Below are positions 27,101 through 34,204 of a stretch of 34,489 nucleotides of DNA, one piece after another. Source of the DNA: a virus. Taxonomy: Duplodnaviria > Heunggongvirae > Uroviricota > Caudoviricetes. How positions within the stretch are numbered: position 1 is the first letter of the stretch; each line of letters opens with the position of its first letter. The notes under the pieces are model-generated. The model worked only from the letters and a program-made list of their open reading frames with translations. It had not been told where the DNA came from and made no database searches. The position numbers and the translations under genes were made by a program. The DNA is taken from the IMG/VR virus record IMGVR_UViG_2541047695_000003, one strand, 5' to 3'.

Positions 27101-27854
27101 TGATAATGCGATGATTCGTAATGCTGCAATTGGCACAGCCCAGATTAGTGATGCTAGTATCACCACGGCTAAGATCGGCACAGCCCAGATTAACGGCGCT
27201 CACATCCAACACGCACAGATCGGAACAGGTCATATCATTGATGGCTCTATCGATAATGCTAAAATTGGTAACTATATCCAGTCTTATAACTGGAATGGTA
27301 ACGATGGATGGTATATCGGCAAAGATGGCACTTGTCATTTTAGACACGCTAATATTCGTGGTCATTTGGTGGCTGATTCCGGCGAAATGAACAACGTAAC
27401 GATTAATTCAAGTTGCCGCATTTTGGGTATGCTTGATGCTAATCAGGTGCGTGGTGACTTCGTGAAAGTGGTTGGTAGGAGTTTCCCGCATCGCCAACCA
27501 AACTGGCCTGATGGTGCAATCACTGTAAGGGTCGAAGATGATCATCCATTCGATCGCCAAATAGTGATTCCAGCGATTCATCATAACGGGTCTGTTCGTA
27601 GTGGCGAAAGTAGCGATCATTGGGATACTTGCCGACTAATCGTTAAGAAAAATGGTGGTGTTCTATATGATCGCACTGCAACTTCTGGCTGTATGTACAG
27701 TGGAGTTATTGACATGCCAGCCGGACACGGGGCAGTAACAATGACTTTTGAAGTTTACTGTAAGGGCGTTAACAACTATAACCCAAGTGCATATATCAGC
27801 GATCTAACGGTAATGGTAACTAAGAAAGCCGCTACTGGTATTTCTGTTTCTTAA
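24108..27854 (+). CDS. Tail tip attachment / host-specificity protein, lambda J-like (1248 aa) with N-terminal lambda gpI-like hydrophobic segment
   Basis: By recall of lambda: C-terminal ~150 aa match the lambda J receptor-binding region (DDHPFDRQIV, DMPAGxGxVxxTF, VMVxKKxAxGISV); N-terminal ~95 aa resemble the C-terminal half of lambda gpI (hydrophobic Gly/Ala stretch, APKTPK, VLPVLFG); central region has Ig/FN3-like segments and repeats ATSE(Q/A)ASA(T/S)KIDQV. Confidence 0.9.
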   Translation: MGFEILVGAVIAGASAGMAAAATFSVMTAVAIGMAAGAMTLIASTVGAPKTPKVQSPDNAVTLGTSNDPKTVLPVLFGTTRTGAICVYKAISQRENNKLVQIFAIAEGEIDHFKALHIDNKNVLISQNMTIRDGILDKGNIKDEYRKVLEVEFRTGKNPNTALDLAKHHLGADWDDRYQGNGIATMCIVLRRDDKSLAAGVDILQPNSQVAVDVMGLKIRNLETNAIEASTNGVDQIFHYLTNTKYGLSVPIENINVDSFLKVRKQVRQMDLHSNGACDPNASFKENLTSLMQTFGGVMFESFGRITLKLDAPDIVKHTFNEDNIMMGKVSLKTGGTNGYFNTINAMYQEPSIDYSEQMLRYPADAENDATIRQDGRIIAKDIEYRFVKSKAQIDKLASVERNKSRITQVISFMTTDAFTAEVWDVISVTYDELKLNNSLWRITAIDRSIDSGIAGMMTITATEYNSQVYTDLNYAATPDNRPTGLPDSMTVQKPTNFRIKATGETIHGKNVTLTWDAPEDFNRYGFQIDYRVSGSPNWIKLGQTSQQIFNINALAKDRSYDYRVCAFGIIARSEWVELVNQNPTVTYELPTPVIRIKNQGSTPGTFEGNDLIIEWENQQQLDVMINGEANKFSDLFEAYIIKVTNKAGKSIQYRTRDPESWTYTLDMNQFNGLSRELTVEVSVKGYNNSESAPARLVAINPQHKPMKGFSARGGFNTAFVSWADDVEHDYAGSIIQYATDNTFSDARAVTTNSVSHTSFDLADGDYYIRGAHYDIFGMDDAVWSEPYFMQMKSTISWDDQDKEALEDLIGLQDRLDETIADAIAQAGANADAKIDAMHKQITTETGQTVQASADTLKSLIATSEQASATKIDQVKAELKGDITKEVSASATTLKQAIATSEAASASKIDQVRVEMDGKIAGVNQEADVKIDALKGTINSKYNLAVNADGRVAGIHMSATNDPAEPTRIIFTADKIAVAPQDGSEVCPFGIEDNKVYLDNAMIRNAAIGTAQISDASITTAKIGTAQINGAHIQHAQIGTGHIIDGSIDNAKIGNYIQSYNWNGNDGWYIGKDGTCHFRHANIRGHLVADSGEMNNVTINSSCRILGMLDANQVRGDFVKVVGRSFPHRQPNWPDGAITVRVEDDHPFDRQIVIPAIHHNGSVRSGESSDHWDTCRLIVKKNGGVLYDRTATSGCMYSGVIDMPAGHGAVTMTFEVYCKGVNNYNPSAYISDLTVMVTKKAATGISVS

Positions 27855-30271: not shown

Positions 30272-31270
30272 ATGAATACTACTTTAGCAAAGGATATCGA
30301 ATTTACCGCAAAAAGCAAACGTGCGACCCCTCCGGTCGAATATGAAACCAGAATCATTAAAGTTTGTCAAGTGCATGGATGGTTATACAGTGGTTTTGTG
30401 CTTCCTGTAAAGAAACCATTCCAGAACACCAAAGTTTGCATAGAAGTTAACGGAAAGGTTAAAACGCCATGTATTAGTCATGTTCTAACTGGTCAGTTTA
30501 CTGGCAAAGATAGAGTATCACCGCCTAAGAAGAAGTTTAGATTTACCGAAGAAGAACACTTAGAAAACGCTCGCAAGTTCTACAAGCCGATAGGGTGGGA
30601 TGTGTTAGGTCTGGCTGAACCTTATCAGGGTGTTGACACTAAACTAATTCTTCGTTGTAAGTGCCACGGAAAGATTCACAAGAAAGGTGATTTACACAAT
30701 AACCGCAGACAAGGCGGGTTAACATGCCCTTTGGTTAGGGGTGTACTTAAATCAATTCAGAATGGTAGAAAACAGGTTATCAGAAACAAGTTTGCACAGC
30801 GCCCTATGCACTTTTATCTAATTCGTGTTGGCGAGAAGTTTTTCAAATATGGAATTACCACTCGCAAAGATCCGATGCAACGGGTAAGAGAACACCAGAA
30901 GCACACCAGCGAGAAAATCACCTTTGAATGCTCACATTTGTTTAACATTGGATGGAAAGCTGGTGATTTAGAAATGGGGATTAAAAAGAATATTCAGGGC
31001 AAGAAAATCCCACGTAAGGTAATGAATAGCGGATTCACAGAAACGCTACCGATTAGCAAGCTGAAAGATGTTAAATCATTCATCAATGAATACATCCACA
31101 CCAACCCATCTAAGCCAATGTATTTTGATGATACCAACGCAATCAATCTGAACAACTACATTAGTGATGAAGACATAGAACGAGATTTATCGCAGTGGAT
31201 GAATGCACCGTTAGCTGATTTAACACCGGAAGACTTAGAACTCGATTTAAGCCCTTTAGAGGCTCTTTAA
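30272..31270 (+). CDS. T5orf172 / GIY-YIG-like domain protein with N-terminal Cys/His-rich region (332 aa)
   Basis: HFYLIRVGEKFFKYGITTRKDPMQRVREH matches the T5orf172 (MUG113) signature of the GIY-YIG superfamily as I recall it; N-terminal CQVHGW...C...CKCHGKIHKKGD suggests a zinc-binding module; GAGGA SD. Confidence 0.7.
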   Translation: MNTTLAKDIEFTAKSKRATPPVEYETRIIKVCQVHGWLYSGFVLPVKKPFQNTKVCIEVNGKVKTPCISHVLTGQFTGKDRVSPPKKKFRFTEEEHLENARKFYKPIGWDVLGLAEPYQGVDTKLILRCKCHGKIHKKGDLHNNRRQGGLTCPLVRGVLKSIQNGRKQVIRNKFAQRPMHFYLIRVGEKFFKYGITTRKDPMQRVREHQKHTSEKITFECSHLFNIGWKAGDLEMGIKKNIQGKKIPRKVMNSGFTETLPISKLKDVKSFINEYIHTNPSKPMYFDDTNAINLNNYISDEDIERDLSQWMNAPLADLTPEDLELDLSPLEAL

Positions 31271-31343: not shown

Positions 31344-33023
31344 TTAAATTCCAAATTCCTGTAATGGACCTGGTATTTCCTCTTCTGGTTTCCAGTTCTT
31401 ATCTGTCAGCATGTCTAAACATGGATGCAGAACAAGCCCGTTGCTCTCCAGAATCTGCCTATCATTGATAGTTTTCAAATCAATGAATATCCGGCCTTTC
31501 CTCGTTCCTCTTGAATTTTCTATTACAACTCTCTGGGTCTTTCCATCGATGTATTCCAGCACAAACAAGTTTTTATTTCTGTCAATCCTGCTACACCCGA
31601 TCCGCTTTAGAGCTTGCTTAATCTTAAACCGGACCTTTAGTCGTTCCTCGTTATAAACATCTTCTAAATCAAATTCTGCGAGCTTCTCCCAGCCTTGAGA
31701 GTCCACAGAATACATTTCCTCTTCTGCCATCTTGATCTGATTGTAGAGTGTTTCACGCTCGCTATTGAGGGTAGTAATCTGATCGGCTAGCTCCTTCGTT
31801 GCTCCTGTCATAGCAGAAAGGGCAATCAGGTTATCAATCTTGCGTGATATTTCATCAACCTGTACTTTCAACGCCGGAACCGGATTAGCCTTGTCCTCAG
31901 CAATCCATATTTTATCAGCCAGCAATTGCAATACAGCTTTCTCTAATTGATCACCTCGAAAACTCCAGTTTGGATGCTCGCAATCAAGTCTACGTGAACG
32001 GGTCGCATCACATGTATAACGATACTGGTCAGAACGTTTGTTCGTTCCCTTCACTTTAACCATAGCGCAACCGCAATGATCACATTTCAATAGGCCAATA
32101 CCACTAAGCAGGGGGATCGGTTTAACTTCTTCCTTGTCTCCAAAGTTCCATGCTCTAGCACCAATATTTTTCTTAAGGTGATAGAACGTAGCATCATCAA
32201 TAACACGAGGGTAATAATCCTTTAACTCATAGTTAACACCATCTACAGAGACTTCCTTGATACCAATCAAAGCGCGGGTATGGAACAACCTTTCAACCAT
32301 TGCCCGTGACCATTTTGAATGCTTCTTGTTGCTTACTGCTGGTGGCGGTGTATATGTCTCGTTAAGGTGATCCAGTATCTCGGCGGTTGAACGTCCATTC
32401 TTCCGTAATTCCACAATCTCCTGAACAACAGGGAAGTATGTAGGATGAGGCAACACATAACCGGAAGTGGTATCCGTCCACCACATATTCTTTCCAACTT
32501 CCTCGATTGCCACTGCCGGATTCTGGGGATTTTCTTGATGGGCTTTAATCTTAATCAGTGCGCTTGAGTTAGTACGATTGCGCTTAGTCTGGCTTTCCTC
32601 ATTACCACGGATGAATAAAAGGATGGAGAACATCAGGTCCATCGGGTTAGCGGTAACAGTATCCAGCGAGTAGATCTTGTTATCCATGCCAGTAACAATG
32701 GTTATTCCCCTACGGATGATTGAAAGGAATAACTCCTGCGCACTGACAATATCGGCACGGGATAAGCGGTCCAAGTTTTCAATGAATAGCCAGCTACCAA
32801 CAGGAACGGATCTACCAATTGCATCAAGGAAACGAGATAGCGCCCCTGTTTTAGAGTTAGCACCCTTAAACGCAGATACACCCAGATCCTGATAATCATT
32901 TACCAGTTCAAGGTCATACTTTGCCGCAACCTCTCTCGCCATCCTGATTTGTCGTTCATAACTCGAACCATCATTCTGACGCATAGACGAGAAGCGAATA
33001 TACGAATACAGTTTAGTTTTCAT
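31344..33023 (-). CDS. Large serine recombinase (serine integrase, 559 aa)
   Basis: N-terminus MKTKLYSYIRFSS...Q with catalytic-Ser resolvase-type domain, then a recombinase domain, Cys cluster (CDHCGC...C-x-A...CEH) and C-terminal coiled-coil, the architecture of phiC31/Bxb1-type integrases. Start taken at ATG 33023 rather than the upstream TTG 33038 of the track. Confidence 0.9.
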   Translation of the reverse strand: MKTKLYSYIRFSSMRQNDGSSYERQIRMAREVAAKYDLELVNDYQDLGVSAFKGANSKTGALSRFLDAIGRSVPVGSWLFIENLDRLSRADIVSAQELFLSIIRRGITIVTGMDNKIYSLDTVTANPMDLMFSILLFIRGNEESQTKRNRTNSSALIKIKAHQENPQNPAVAIEEVGKNMWWTDTTSGYVLPHPTYFPVVQEIVELRKNGRSTAEILDHLNETYTPPPAVSNKKHSKWSRAMVERLFHTRALIGIKEVSVDGVNYELKDYYPRVIDDATFYHLKKNIGARAWNFGDKEEVKPIPLLSGIGLLKCDHCGCAMVKVKGTNKRSDQYRYTCDATRSRRLDCEHPNWSFRGDQLEKAVLQLLADKIWIAEDKANPVPALKVQVDEISRKIDNLIALSAMTGATKELADQITTLNSERETLYNQIKMAEEEMYSVDSQGWEKLAEFDLEDVYNEERLKVRFKIKQALKRIGCSRIDRNKNLFVLEYIDGKTQRVVIENSRGTRKGRIFIDLKTINDRQILESNGLVLHPCLDMLTDKNWKPEEEIPGPLQEFGI

Positions 33024-33030
33024 ACCATTT

Positions 33031-33072
33031 CCAAACAAAAACGCCCCTACCGCGTATTATAACGATAGGGGC
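33031..33072 (-). terminator. Hairpin GCCCCTA...TAGGGGC followed by U-rich tract on minus strand
   Basis: 7-bp stem with 16-nt loop; minus-strand downstream GTTTTTGTTTGG; sits between 33087-33506 and the recombinase start and overlaps the alternative TTG start. Confidence 0.4.
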
Positions 33073-33086
33073 TAGGTGATTAAAGA

Positions 33087-33506
33087 TTAAAGAATTTCAC
33101 GGCAGCTAATCAGGGAATAAGACGTATCACCTTTTTTAACATCAAATATAGGAGAACCATCAATAGAATGCAGATATTTGATGTAAGACTTACCATCTTC
33201 GGAACCATAATATTCTTCTTTCTCGTTCTTATCTTCTTTCAGTTTCGGGCTTTTGATTGTTTTATCAAATACCGGATCGTTGAAAGCAAATTGACTATTA
33301 TCATCATTCACTCGAACCTTTACACCGATAAAACCACGGTATTTGCCAGACGGCGCATGATAATAACGGTCGCCATCACTCAGGTAGCGTGTATCATCTC
33401 CTTTATGTTCGAAGTAGGAATTGCACACATAATAGGTATAGGTATTAGCATTCGCAGCACCAACCAAACCCAGAGCAAGAACAACACCCGCGATAATCTT
33501 TTTCAT
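33087..33506 (-). CDS. Secreted/periplasmic protein with cleavable signal peptide (139 aa), moron-like
   Basis: MKKIIAGVVLALGLVGAANA signal peptide with A-N-A cleavage-site motif; mature part Tyr/Asp/Lys-rich with two Cys; GAGGA SD 9 nt upstream. Confidence 0.75.
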   Translation of the reverse strand: MKKIIAGVVLALGLVGAANANTYTYYVCNSYFEHKGDDTRYLSDGDRYYHAPSGKYRGFIGVKVRVNDDNSQFAFNDPVFDKTIKSPKLKEDKNEKEEYYGSEDGKSYIKYLHSIDGSPIFDVKKGDTSYSLISCREIL

Positions 33507-33551
33507 AGTAGAATTTCCTCTTGTTATTTGAATTACGATATATTTATATCG

Positions 33552-33677
33552 TTAAAAGTTGATGCTGATTACCAAACCAAACACAACCGCACCAATCAAA
33601 TCAATCCAGTTAATACACAATCCGCTATATTCTTTCTTGAATGTCTTAGATGAAATGCCATCATGAAATTGTTTCAT
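33552..33677 (-). CDS. Small tail-anchored membrane peptide (41 aa), hypothetical
   Basis: ATG 33677 (minus), MKQFHDGISSKTFKKEYSGLCINWIDLIGAVVFGLVISINF; weak SD; below track cutoff. A second 26-aa hydrophobic ORF with GGAGA SD lies at 33681-33761. Confidence 0.25.
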   Translation of the reverse strand: MKQFHDGISSKTFKKEYSGLCINWIDLIGAVVFGLVISINF

Positions 33678-33775
33678 TGCTCACCCCATACTAACGACAA
33701 GATAAGAAAGACTAATAATAGTTGTGAGACTACCTCCCACGAATGAGATAAAAGCTAACATGTTTGATTCTCCAT

Positions 33776-33803
33776 TTAAAAAGCGGTGGGAATTGCACCC
33801 ACC
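33776..33803 (-). terminator. Rho-independent terminator on minus strand (GGTGGG-loop-CCCACC plus U-run)
   Basis: 6-bp stem 33785-33790/33798-33803; A5 on + strand at 33778-33782 gives U-run on the minus transcript, 15 nt after the stop of 33818-34204. Confidence 0.55.
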
Positions 33804-33817
33804 AAATTAGAAATTAA

Positions 33818-34204
33818 TTAAGCGCGAACGATGGTCAGAGTATCCAGCAAACCTTTTTCGTATAATTCGAAACACGTTTTATATTGCTCAATCTGGAAAC
33901 CATAGCGGGTGATCTTATTCAGTAGGACAATCGCGCTATTCTCATCTAGGTATTGTCCTTGCTGTCCAATTACATAAGTCTCACGATTCAATCTCAGCTT
34001 ACGGAAACCTTTAACACCTAATTCCTTAGCCACCGCTTTAATCTCTTTAATCTCACCCTCAGCCGCAACATATTCAGCGTCGATAATCTCAGGTGATGAT
34101 CTCAGTGCTACCAGAACTAAGGCCATTGCTTCTTCTTCTGTACGCGCAACACCAGCTTTCTCGAAAGTCATCTCACCAAATTTACGAATCATGATATTGA
34201 ACAT
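33818..34204 (-). CDS. Hypothetical protein (128 aa)
   Basis: Clean ORF with its own terminator; no motif recognised. Confidence 0.7.
   Translation of the reverse strand: MFNIMIRKFGEMTFEKAGVARTEEEAMALVLVALRSSPEIIDAEYVAAEGEIKEIKAVAKELGVKGFRKLRLNRETYVIGQQGQYLDENSAIVLLNKITRYGFQIEQYKTCFELYEKGLLDTLTIVRA

What the first reader, a model, noticed from the sequence alone, without database searches (positions are those of the whole stretch)
33087..33506. Signal-peptide moron protein adjacent to the integrase
ORF 33087-33506 encodes a 139-aa protein with a textbook Sec signal peptide (MKKIIAGVVLALGLVGAANA) and a Tyr/Asp/Lys-rich mature domain with two Cys, flanked by its own RBS and terminator. Secreted or periplasmic proteins next to integrases in temperate phages are often lysogenic-conversion or superinfection-exclusion factors.
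Basis: partly seen in the sequence, partly recalled or inferred. Interest (0 to 1): 0.45.

Follow-up and report, generated by a model that had tools for sequence, protein, structure and literature searches.

The report
Swappable secreted prophage cargo protein
This is a real gene for a small protein exported to the periplasm, sitting in an exchangeable "cargo slot" next to the integrase of an undescribed E. coli/Salmonella prophage; it is probably an accessory envelope or anti-phage factor, but its function is still unknown.

Summary
Window 33087-33506 (minus strand) encodes a 139-aa protein with a canonical Sec/SPase-I signal peptide, two invariant cysteines, an RBS and a strong terminator. 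It lies directly upstream of a large serine integrase near the prophage end, and the prophage is inserted in ycdX.

The gene evolves under purifying selection (dN/dS 0.14-0.54). AlphaFold predicts a confident all-beta barrel-like domain (pLDDT 87). No curated family, solved structure or viral model matches it specifically. An exhaustive profile search finds only about 5 full-length clusters, and every context examined is a prophage of this lineage.

The main new result is comparative. The mature-domain coding region (33073-33447) is a swappable cassette. In about half of 58 related E. coli prophages it is replaced by an unrelated 81-aa helical protein that keeps the identical signal peptide and terminator. 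Alleles are shuffled relative to the integrase and to the tail receptor-binding domain.

This supports accessory "moron-like" status. It argues against essential phage functions and against masking of the phage's own receptor. MliC/PliC lysozyme-inhibitor membership was tested and rejected. Function is inferred only: a periplasmic binding or inhibitor protein, probably involved in phage or envelope conflict. The finding is moderately interesting: a new orphan member of a known kind.

The parts
33087..33506 (-). Target gene: 139-aa secreted protein precursor (signal peptide plus beta-barrel-like domain)
   Evidence: ORF and translation; homologues; purifying selection; AF2 pLDDT 86.9
33447..33506 (-). 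Signal-peptide coding segment (residues 1-20, MKKIIAGVVLALGLVGAANA). This is the constant 'leader', shared with the unrelated 81-aa cassette protein
   Evidence: Homology with L002/L003 runs through codon 20 and then stops; BLASTP identity covers residues 1-24 only; descriptors
33073..33447 (-). Exchangeable cassette: mature-domain coding region plus stop codon
   Evidence: About 30 of 58 E. coli prophages lack this stretch and carry another ORF between the same flanks. dS is 0.89 here versus 0.06 in the adjacent integrase for window vs L001
33043..33072 (-). Intrinsic terminator hairpin (T-run extends to about 33033). It is the constant 3' flank of the cassette and sits just upstream of the integrase start
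   Evidence: homology with the 81-aa variants resumes exactly at 33072
33507..33530 (-). RBS / translation-initiation region of the target (AAGAGGAAA...ATG). This segment is repeated in front of each cassette in tandem-cassette prophages
33531..33550 (-). Invariant 20-nt element GATATAAATATATCGTAATT containing a perfect palindrome; candidate operator or regulatory site
   Evidence: 100% conserved across 7 E. coli/Salmonella loci despite diverged flanks; unique in the window; not a stable RNA fold
33552..33677 (-). Conserved 41-aa ORF with a C-terminal transmembrane segment, immediately upstream in the same unit
   Evidence: Coding-like conservation across loci; annotated in some genomes; lineage-restricted homologues
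33681..33761 (-). Conserved 26-aa hydrophobic ORF, first gene of the unit
   Evidence: conserved peptide in E. coli and Salmonella loci
33784..33804 (-). Conserved terminator-like hairpin separating the unit from the upstream 128-aa gene
31344..33038 (-). Large serine recombinase (prophage integrase); the likely true start is the ATG at 33023

Best explanation
The gene encodes a soluble periplasmic protein. It is exported by Sec, cleaved after Ala20, and folds into a compact all-beta barrel-like domain, probably clamped by a C28-C135 disulfide. It is non-essential prophage cargo housed in a modular slot. The ribosome-binding site, signal-peptide codons and terminator are constant, and the mature domain is exchanged by homologous recombination among related E. 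coli/Salmonella prophages. I infer that it acts by binding or inhibiting a partner in the periplasm, through its family-invariant surface motif D81-K-x-I-x-S-P-K-L-K90, to protect the lysogen. The most likely role is blocking a periplasmic step of infection by other phages (superinfection exclusion in the manner of T4 Spackle or P1 Sim). Neutralising an incoming envelope-damaging enzyme is the alternative. SHOWN: gene reality, export signal, fold class, cassette exchange, dispensability, independence from integrase and receptor-binding-domain alleles. INFERRED: disulfide, expression in lysogens, the binding mode and the protective function.
Confidence: 0.4

Rival explanations
1. It is a periplasmic inhibitor of a peptidoglycan hydrolase (animal lysozyme, a bacteriocin or T6SS muramidase, or a phage tail/endolysin enzyme). 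It would work like MliC/PliC/ACP/PhiA without being homologous in sequence, inserting a protruding conserved loop into the enzyme's cleft.
Confidence: 0.17
2. It is a lysogenic-conversion factor aimed at the animal host or at general envelope physiology (for example ligand or metal binding, stress tolerance, or adhesion after release), with no role in phage-phage conflict.
For: It occupies the cargo position near att. It is carried by commensal and pathogenic gut isolates. The barrel fold class also includes ligand-binding proteins such as YceI, lipocalin-like proteins, hemophilin and TbpB lobes. It is independent of the phage receptor-binding domain.
Against: No ligand-binding family matches. 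Frequent replacement by an unrelated tiny helical protein and deep allelic shuffling fit an arms-race interface better than a housekeeping ligand binder. The family is confined to one prophage lineage.
Confidence: 0.18
3. It masks the phage's own receptor from the periplasmic side, as the siphophage exclusion factors Llp (T5/FhuA), Cor and Rtp45 (LptD) do.
For: The phage is a siphovirus with a lambda-J-like receptor-binding tip, and small exported proteins are the known exclusion factors in such phages (PMC12685063).
Against: The known factors are lipoproteins. This protein has no lipobox and has an SPase-I site. Every J receptor-binding-domain allele class carries both cassette types (chi-square p = 0.46, permutation p = 0.51, n = 48).
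Confidence: 0.05
4. It has a core phage function in lysis, virion assembly or integration (for example a spanin-like protein or a recombination directionality factor), and its place beside the integrase is functional.
For: It is linked to the same type of serine integrase, with a gap of about 50-70 bp, in every context, including a prophage at a different attB.
Against: Unrelated proteins or a homing-endonuclease-like gene replace it in about half of sister prophages that keep the same integrase. An exported protein cannot be a directionality factor. It lies on the opposite strand from the lysis and tail genes, about 3.2 kb from the endolysin gene.
Confidence: 0.03

Closest known systems
T4 Spackle (gp61.3), soluble periplasmic superinfection-exclusion protein
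   Same: Both are small phage-encoded precursors with a cleavable Sec signal peptide (22 aa in Sp), a soluble periplasmic mature domain and a single Cys pair. Sp acts by 1:1 binding and inhibition of a partner that arrives in the periplasm (PMC7650644).
   Different: Sp is all-helical, comes from a lytic phage and targets the gp5 tail lysozyme. The target is an all-beta barrel-like domain from a temperate siphovirus in which Pfam detects no virion lysozyme. There is no sequence or structural similarity. The alternative 81-aa cassette (helical, two Cys) resembles Sp's architecture more than the target does.
MliC/PliC/ACP/PhiA periplasmic peptidoglycan-hydrolase inhibitors
   Different: There is no HMM or profile match. 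The SxSGAxY and YxxxTKG motifs are absent at equivalent positions. The target's invariant motif DKxIxSPKLK has no counterpart. DSSP gives 11 strand segments, and the domain is larger (119 aa versus about 85-105).
Llp (T5), Cor (phi80/N15/HK022), Rtp45: siphophage exclusion lipoproteins
   Same: All are small exported proteins of siphophages that act on the periplasmic side of the envelope (PMC12685063).
   Different: Those are about 6-kDa lipoproteins that mask the phage's own receptor. The target is not a lipoprotein, is twice the size, lies beside the integrase, and assorts independently of the receptor-binding domain.
Phage 'morons' (e.g. lambda bor/lom, HK97 gp15)
   Same: All are accessory genes with their own terminator, variably present among related prophages and located in a cargo region (PMC3594210).
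   Different: No autonomous promoter was found, and GC content shows no clear anomaly. Exchange affects only the mature-domain coding part, behind a fixed leader. This is an in-frame cassette swap, not insertion of a whole transcription unit.

Membership tests
Sec/SPase-I exported (non-lipoprotein) periplasmic proteins | Tripartite signal peptide: basic n-region, 10-15-residue hydrophobic h-region, small residues at -3 and -1 | tested here: met
   MKK / IIAGVVLALGLVGA (KD 2.66) / A-N-A, conserved in all homologues. AF2 leaves residues 1-19 unstructured. SignalP was not available.
Sec/SPase-I exported (non-lipoprotein) periplasmic proteins | No lipobox (L-x-x-C) and no further transmembrane segment | tested here: met
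   The first Cys is at position 28, preceded by YYV. The most hydrophobic 19-aa window in the mature part scores -0.01.
Sec/SPase-I exported (non-lipoprotein) periplasmic proteins | Experimentally demonstrated cleavage and periplasmic location | not testable with these tools
   Needs fractionation, a PhoA fusion or N-terminal sequencing.
Phage moron | Present in some but absent from otherwise closely related phage genomes | tested here: met
   26 of 58 E. coli prophages have it (25 near full length at 94-98% plus one diverged 135-aa allele). About 28-30 have an unrelated 81-aa ORF, one has a CapR/T5orf172 gene, and a few carry deletions.
Phage moron | Own transcription terminator | tested here: met
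   Hairpin at 33072-33043 plus T-run, z = -3.2.
Phage moron | Own promoter (autonomous expression from the repressed prophage) | tested here: inconclusive
   No sigma-70-like site on the minus strand. The only candidate is a weak one inside the 26-aa ORF. The invariant palindrome is of unknown role.
Phage moron | Nucleotide composition distinct from the surrounding phage genome | tested here: not met
   GC is 0.36-0.38 in the slot, and similar values occur elsewhere in the last 6.5 kb.
MliC/PliC lysozyme inhibitors (PF09864) | Sequence/profile match to the family | tested here: not met
   No Pfam hit for any of 8 members at E <= 10. hhalign against E. coli MliC gives probability 1%, signal peptide only.
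MliC/PliC lysozyme inhibitors (PF09864) | SxSGAxY motif on loop 4 and YxxxTKG on beta-6 (PMC5507604) | tested here: not met
   The target has SGKY (53-56) and KGD (125-127) 71 residues apart, versus 12 in MliC. Neither is conserved in allele class B.
MliC/PliC lysozyme inhibitors (PF09864) | Eight-stranded antiparallel beta-barrel with a beta1-beta8 disulfide | tested here: inconclusive
MliC/PliC lysozyme inhibitors (PF09864) | Inhibition of lysozyme activity | not testable with these tools
   Needs an enzymatic assay.
Llp/Cor/Rtp45-type receptor-masking exclusion lipoproteins | Lipoprotein signal peptide (lipobox) | tested here: not met
Llp/Cor/Rtp45-type receptor-masking exclusion lipoproteins | Specificity matched to the phage's own receptor-binding protein | tested here: not met
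   Cassette type is independent of the J C-terminal allele class (p about 0.5, n = 48).
Known anti-phage defence proteins (PADLOC-DB) | HMM match to a catalogued defence protein | tested here: not met
   No hit at E <= 1.

The most novel reading that the evidence does not exclude
The slot is a modular 'periplasmic effector socket'. A fixed RBS, signal peptide and terminator let this prophage lineage swap structurally unrelated periplasmic domains in frame (the 119-aa beta-barrel, a 61-aa helical hairpin, others). Each domain would be a previously unknown soluble periplasmic anti-phage or anti-effector specificity, with the barrel using its invariant DKxIxSPKLK motif to bind an incoming phage or envelope component. 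A more speculative sub-reading: the family-invariant hairpin that resembles ExbD residues 62-88 (E about 0.3) mimics ExbD and interferes with TonB-dependent entry.
Probability: 0.25. Interest if true: 0.6.

Novelty: new member of a known kind. Interest (0 to 1): 0.4.

Why it matters
Soluble periplasmic phage-exclusion or envelope-protection proteins are rare among characterised systems. T4 Spackle and P1 Sim are the textbook cases, and most known siphophage exclusion factors are lipoproteins or membrane proteins. If this orphan barrel and its helical alternative are protective, they add new periplasmic defence specificities carried by prophages of gut E. coli and Salmonella, which is relevant to phage-therapy host range. 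Whatever the function, the fixed-leader, swappable-domain architecture is a clean natural example of in-frame cassette exchange. It also marks a tractable locus for finding further periplasmic effectors.

Tried and rejected
1. MliC/PliC membership. The Pfam scan of all members and hhalign against E. coli MliC were negative. The SG.Y/KGD resemblance is a coincidence of non-equivalent positions.

2. ExbD relationship. The only PDB sequence hit is a 22-27-residue hairpin at E 0.3-0.45. It is not significant, and the overall folds differ.

3. P0014, a 1752-aa hit from the exhaustive search (E 7e-5). It is an SprB-repeat/T9SS surface protein, so the hit is compositional or repeat noise.

4. Integron-like or site-specific cassette capture using the invariant palindrome. 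In tandem-cassette prophages only the RBS and first-codons leader is repeated, and the palindrome occurs once. Ordinary homologous recombination at the conserved flanks is enough to explain the exchange.

5. An RNA element in the intergenic regions. Rfam has no match at E <= 1, and the palindrome's RNA fold has z = -0.45.

6. Own-receptor masking. There is no association with the J receptor-binding domain.

7. A virion peptidoglycan hydrolase as a self-target. Pfam finds none in the tape measure or tip proteins.

8. Closer structural relatives. Foldseek against PDB found nothing significant. BFVD gave only weak matches to uncharacterised phage signal-peptide or lipoproteins. The AFDB library was unavailable.

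9. Literature on a ycdX-inserted prophage. The one candidate paper concerns ycdX frameshift alleles, not this element.

10. INPHARED phages and PLSDB plasmids. The protein has no tblastn match in either.

11. Homologues of the 81-aa and 41-aa neighbours. All are lineage-restricted 'hypothetical proteins'.

Full report
OBSERVATION

The ORF is real and sits at the stated coordinates, on the minus strand: 33506 to 33087, ATG start, 139 aa.
- The N-terminus is a textbook Sec/SPase-I signal peptide. The n-region is MKK, the h-region is the 14 residues IIAGVVLALGLVGA (mean hydropathy 2.66), and the c-region is A-N-A. There is no lipobox.
- The 119-aa mature part is hydrophilic with no transmembrane-like stretch. 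It contains 13 Tyr, 13 Asp, 13 Lys and two Cys.
- An AAGAGGAAA ribosome-binding site lies 9 nt upstream of the ATG.
- A strong intrinsic terminator follows the stop codon: an 11-bp stem at 33072-33043 plus a T-run, -21.9 kcal/mol, z = -3.2 against shuffles.
- The downstream gene (31344-33038, minus strand) is a large serine recombinase with Resolvase, Recombinase and Zn_ribbon_recom domains; it matches PHROG 95, 'integrase'.

GENOMIC SETTING

The window is most of a siphovirus-type prophage. It encodes a large terminase, portal, major head protein, tape measure, a lambda-J-like tail tip with an Ig_GpJ_C receptor-binding domain, side fibres and an M15 endolysin. It has no close isolated relative: the best TerL identity in INPHARED is 43%.

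The right-hand 3.5 kb occurs in 60 of 5,426 complete E. coli genomes, always on the chromosome. In strain PEC41 the window's last base is the prophage end, and the element interrupts ycdX next to ycdYZ and the csg genes.

Reading on the minus strand from the att end, the order is:
- a 90-aa ORF;
- a 128-aa ORF;
- a conserved terminator hairpin (33804-33784);
- a 26-aa hydrophobic ORF;
- a 41-aa ORF with a C-terminal TM segment;
- an invariant 20-nt palindromic element;
- the target gene;
- a terminator;
- the integrase, followed by its own terminator.

IS IT A REAL GENE?

Yes.
- The 5.8-billion-protein search found homologues of 42-97% identity in E. coli and Salmonella, all 132-139 aa and all named 'hypothetical'.
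- The signal peptide, both cysteines and a motif D81-K-x-I-x-S-P-K-L-K90 are invariant.
- Across seven alleles, dN/dS is 0.14-0.54, which indicates purifying selection, though weaker than on the integrase (0.03-0.17).
- An exhaustive profile search of 1.84 billion representatives found only about five full-length clusters plus truncated or frameshifted fragments. The family is an orphan. In every context examined (six independent contexts: PEC41 plus loci L004-L010) it lies immediately upstream of the same type of serine integrase. One of these prophages sits at a different chromosomal site, next to ydiJ/sufA.

STRUCTURE

AlphaFold2 with the 8-sequence alignment gives a confident model: mean pLDDT 86.9, pTM 0.78, above 92 across the mature domain. 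Residues 1-19 are disordered, and 11 DSSP strand segments form an all-beta domain. C28 lies in the first strand and C135 in the last.

- Foldseek against PDB is not significant.
- BFVD gives weak matches (best E 6e-5, TM 0.56) to uncharacterised phage signal-peptide or lipoproteins.
- The AFDB library was unavailable.
- Pfam, PHROGs, NCBIfam and PADLOC have no match.

THE MAIN NEW FINDING: A SWAPPABLE MATURE DOMAIN BEHIND A FIXED LEADER

blastn of window 33040-33830 against the E. coli genomes shows two groups. Twenty-five genomes have the whole region at 94-98% identity, plus one with a diverged 135-aa allele. About 28-30 genomes match only 33448-33830.

Pairwise alignment puts the breakpoints precisely. 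Identity of 96-99% runs from upstream through codon 20, the last residue of the signal peptide. It then vanishes, and resumes at 33072, the first base of the terminator stem.

Between these flanks the other prophages carry an 81-aa ORF. It has the identical leader MKKIIAGVVLALGLVGAANA and an unrelated mature part with two Cys. BLASTP identity stops at residue 24. AlphaFold predicts a helical hairpin at moderate confidence, pLDDT 67.

Other variants exist:
- Some prophages carry a second cassette in tandem, a 113-aa TM/coiled-coil ORF. Only the 'TAATTCA...AAGAGGA...ATGAAAAAGA' leader is repeated in front of each cassette.
- One prophage has a CapR/T5orf172 homing-endonuclease-like gene in the slot.
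- One related prophage, inserted at a different chromosomal site (next to hicB), has lost the slot and the integrase to an IS1.

Within the 139-aa family, allele history is decoupled from the neighbouring gene.
- Window vs PEC41: the integrases are 100% identical (dS 0.06), but the target alleles are 67% identical (dS 0.89).
- Two Salmonella prophages whose integrases are 95% identical carry targets that are 44% identical.
- Two deep allele classes (A: window, L001, L007, L009; B: L004, L008, L010) are distributed without regard to the integrase tree or host genus.

The slot is therefore a recombination hotspot holding interchangeable, dispensable periplasmic cargo.

WHAT THIS EXCLUDES

Core roles are unlikely. 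Sister prophages with the same integrase lack the protein, so lysis, assembly or directionality-factor functions do not fit.

Classical own-receptor masking of the Llp/Cor/Rtp45 kind is disfavoured. Those factors are periplasmic lipoproteins matched to the phage's receptor-binding protein (PMC12685063). The target has no lipobox. Among 48 prophages, every J C-terminal allele class contains both cassette types (chi-square p = 0.46; permutation p = 0.51).

Membership in the MliC/PliC family was tested against the defining features stated in PMC5507604: an 8-stranded barrel, a beta1-beta8 disulfide, SxSGAxY on loop 4 and YxxxTKG on beta-6.
- The fold and disulfide features are compatible, but I could not superpose structures.
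- The HMM and profile tests fail.
- The look-alike SGKY and KGD are 71 residues apart, against 12 in MliC, and are not conserved in allele class B.

The protein is not a member of that family. The 'works like' idea stays open, because ACP inhibits lysozyme with the same fold and none of the motifs (PMC5507604).

MOST LIKELY MECHANISM (INFERRED)

Sec exports the precursor, and signal peptidase I cleaves it after Ala20. The barrel folds in the periplasm, probably closed by a DsbA-formed C28-C135 bond. It then binds a partner through its invariant DKxIxSPKLK region.

The cargo position, dispensability, exchange for unrelated small periplasmic proteins and deep allele shuffling together fit a conflict interface. 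My best single reading (confidence about 0.4) is a soluble periplasmic protective factor. It most probably blocks a post-adsorption, periplasmic step of infection by other phages. The functional analogues are T4 Spackle (97 aa, 22-aa signal peptide, one disulfide, binds and inhibits the gp5 lysozyme; PMC7650644) and P1 Sim (cited from my own knowledge).

Rival readings:
- a peptidoglycan-hydrolase or lysozyme inhibitor (about 0.17);
- a host-directed or physiological conversion factor (about 0.18);
- own-receptor masking (about 0.05);
- a core phage function (about 0.03).

None has experimental support. No promoter was found, so expression from the repressed prophage is not established.

NOVELTY AND VERDICT

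Three corrections apply:
- the gene is the last member of a small conserved unit with two tiny membrane ORFs;
- it has no evident promoter of its own;
- only its mature domain is mobile.

It is a new, orphan member of a known kind (prophage-encoded exported accessory proteins). The fixed-leader, swappable-domain architecture is the most interesting aspect. Interest is moderate at 0.4.

Noticed in passing
window 33531-33550 (minus strand): The 20-nt element GATATAAATATATCGTAATT, containing the perfect palindrome ACGATATA-AA-TATATCGT, is 100% invariant across seven E. coli and Salmonella loci whose flanking coding DNA has diverged to about 70% identity. It is unique in the window, does not match the sigma-70 consensus, and is not a stable RNA hairpin. 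It may be an operator controlling the cassette.
   Followed up: partly
window 33681-33761 and 33552-33677 (minus strand): Two tiny ORFs are conserved with coding-like substitution patterns in E. coli and Salmonella, and they precede the target in one unit. One is 26 aa (MLAFISFVGGSLTTIISLSYLVVSMG). The other is 41 aa with a C-terminal TM segment (MKQFHDGISSKTFKKEYSGLCINWIDLIGAVVFGLVISINF). Their function is unknown. Homologues of the 41-aa protein are restricted to this lineage.
   Followed up: partly
window 33784-33804 (minus strand): A conserved terminator-like hairpin abuts the RBS of the 26-aa ORF and leaves no room for a promoter. How the 26-aa/41-aa/target unit is transcribed (read-through, attenuation or an internal weak promoter) is unresolved.
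   Followed up: partly
L002 2314-2559 (-), L003 2314-2559 (-), L012 2311-2559 (-): This is the alternative cassette: an 81-82-aa protein with the same signal peptide, two invariant Cys and a predicted helical hairpin (pLDDT 67). It is found in about half of the related E. coli prophages, is restricted to E. coli and is unannotated.
   Followed up: yes
L003 2589-2930 (-): About 7 prophages carry an extra tandem cassette: a 113-aa ORF with an N-terminal hydrophobic segment (MKKTIYAIIVSVCVGG...) and a coiled coil. Its only PADLOC hits are weak ones to TM/coiled-coil parts of DRT-associated proteins (E about 5e-4), which are probably compositional.
   Followed up: partly
L013 1461-2507 (-); window 30272-31270 (+): CapR-homology/T5orf172 (GIY-YIG-like) homing-endonuclease-type genes occur in this prophage lineage. 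One fills the cassette slot in strain FDAARGOS_1267, and a related 332-aa gene sits just downstream of the integrase's 3' end in the window.
   Followed up: partly
window end 34489; L001 15480-15860: The prophage integrates within ycdX, whose remnant lacks its N-terminus, next to ycdYZ and the curli csg operon. Related prophages use other sites (next to hicB/ydcR in PSJ-07; next to ydiJ/sufA in L008). The first minus-strand ORF starts only about 40 bp from the host junction.
   Followed up: partly
window 33247-33327 (residues 60-86 of the target): The family's most conserved hairpin (VKVRVNDDNSQFAFNDPVFDKTI) resembles E. coli ExbD residues 62-88 (VYLSVKADNSMFIGNDPVTDETM), with 11 of 22 residues identical. 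The database E-value is only 0.3-0.45, so this is most likely chance.
   Followed up: partly
window 27300-27854; The C-terminal receptor-binding domain of the lambda-J-like tail tip protein exists in at least six sharply distinct allele classes (>=98.7%, about 83%, 77%, 75%, 65%, and mosaic) among about 55 related E. coli prophages. This indicates frequent receptor-specificity switching in the lineage.
   Followed up: partly
window 33818-34204 (-): PGAP calls this 128-aa protein 'beta/alpha barrel domain-containing' in some genomes. It matches only PHROG 14908 (unknown function). It is present in some lineage members and replaced by other small genes in the Salmonella prophages, so this flank is also variable.
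   Followed up: no
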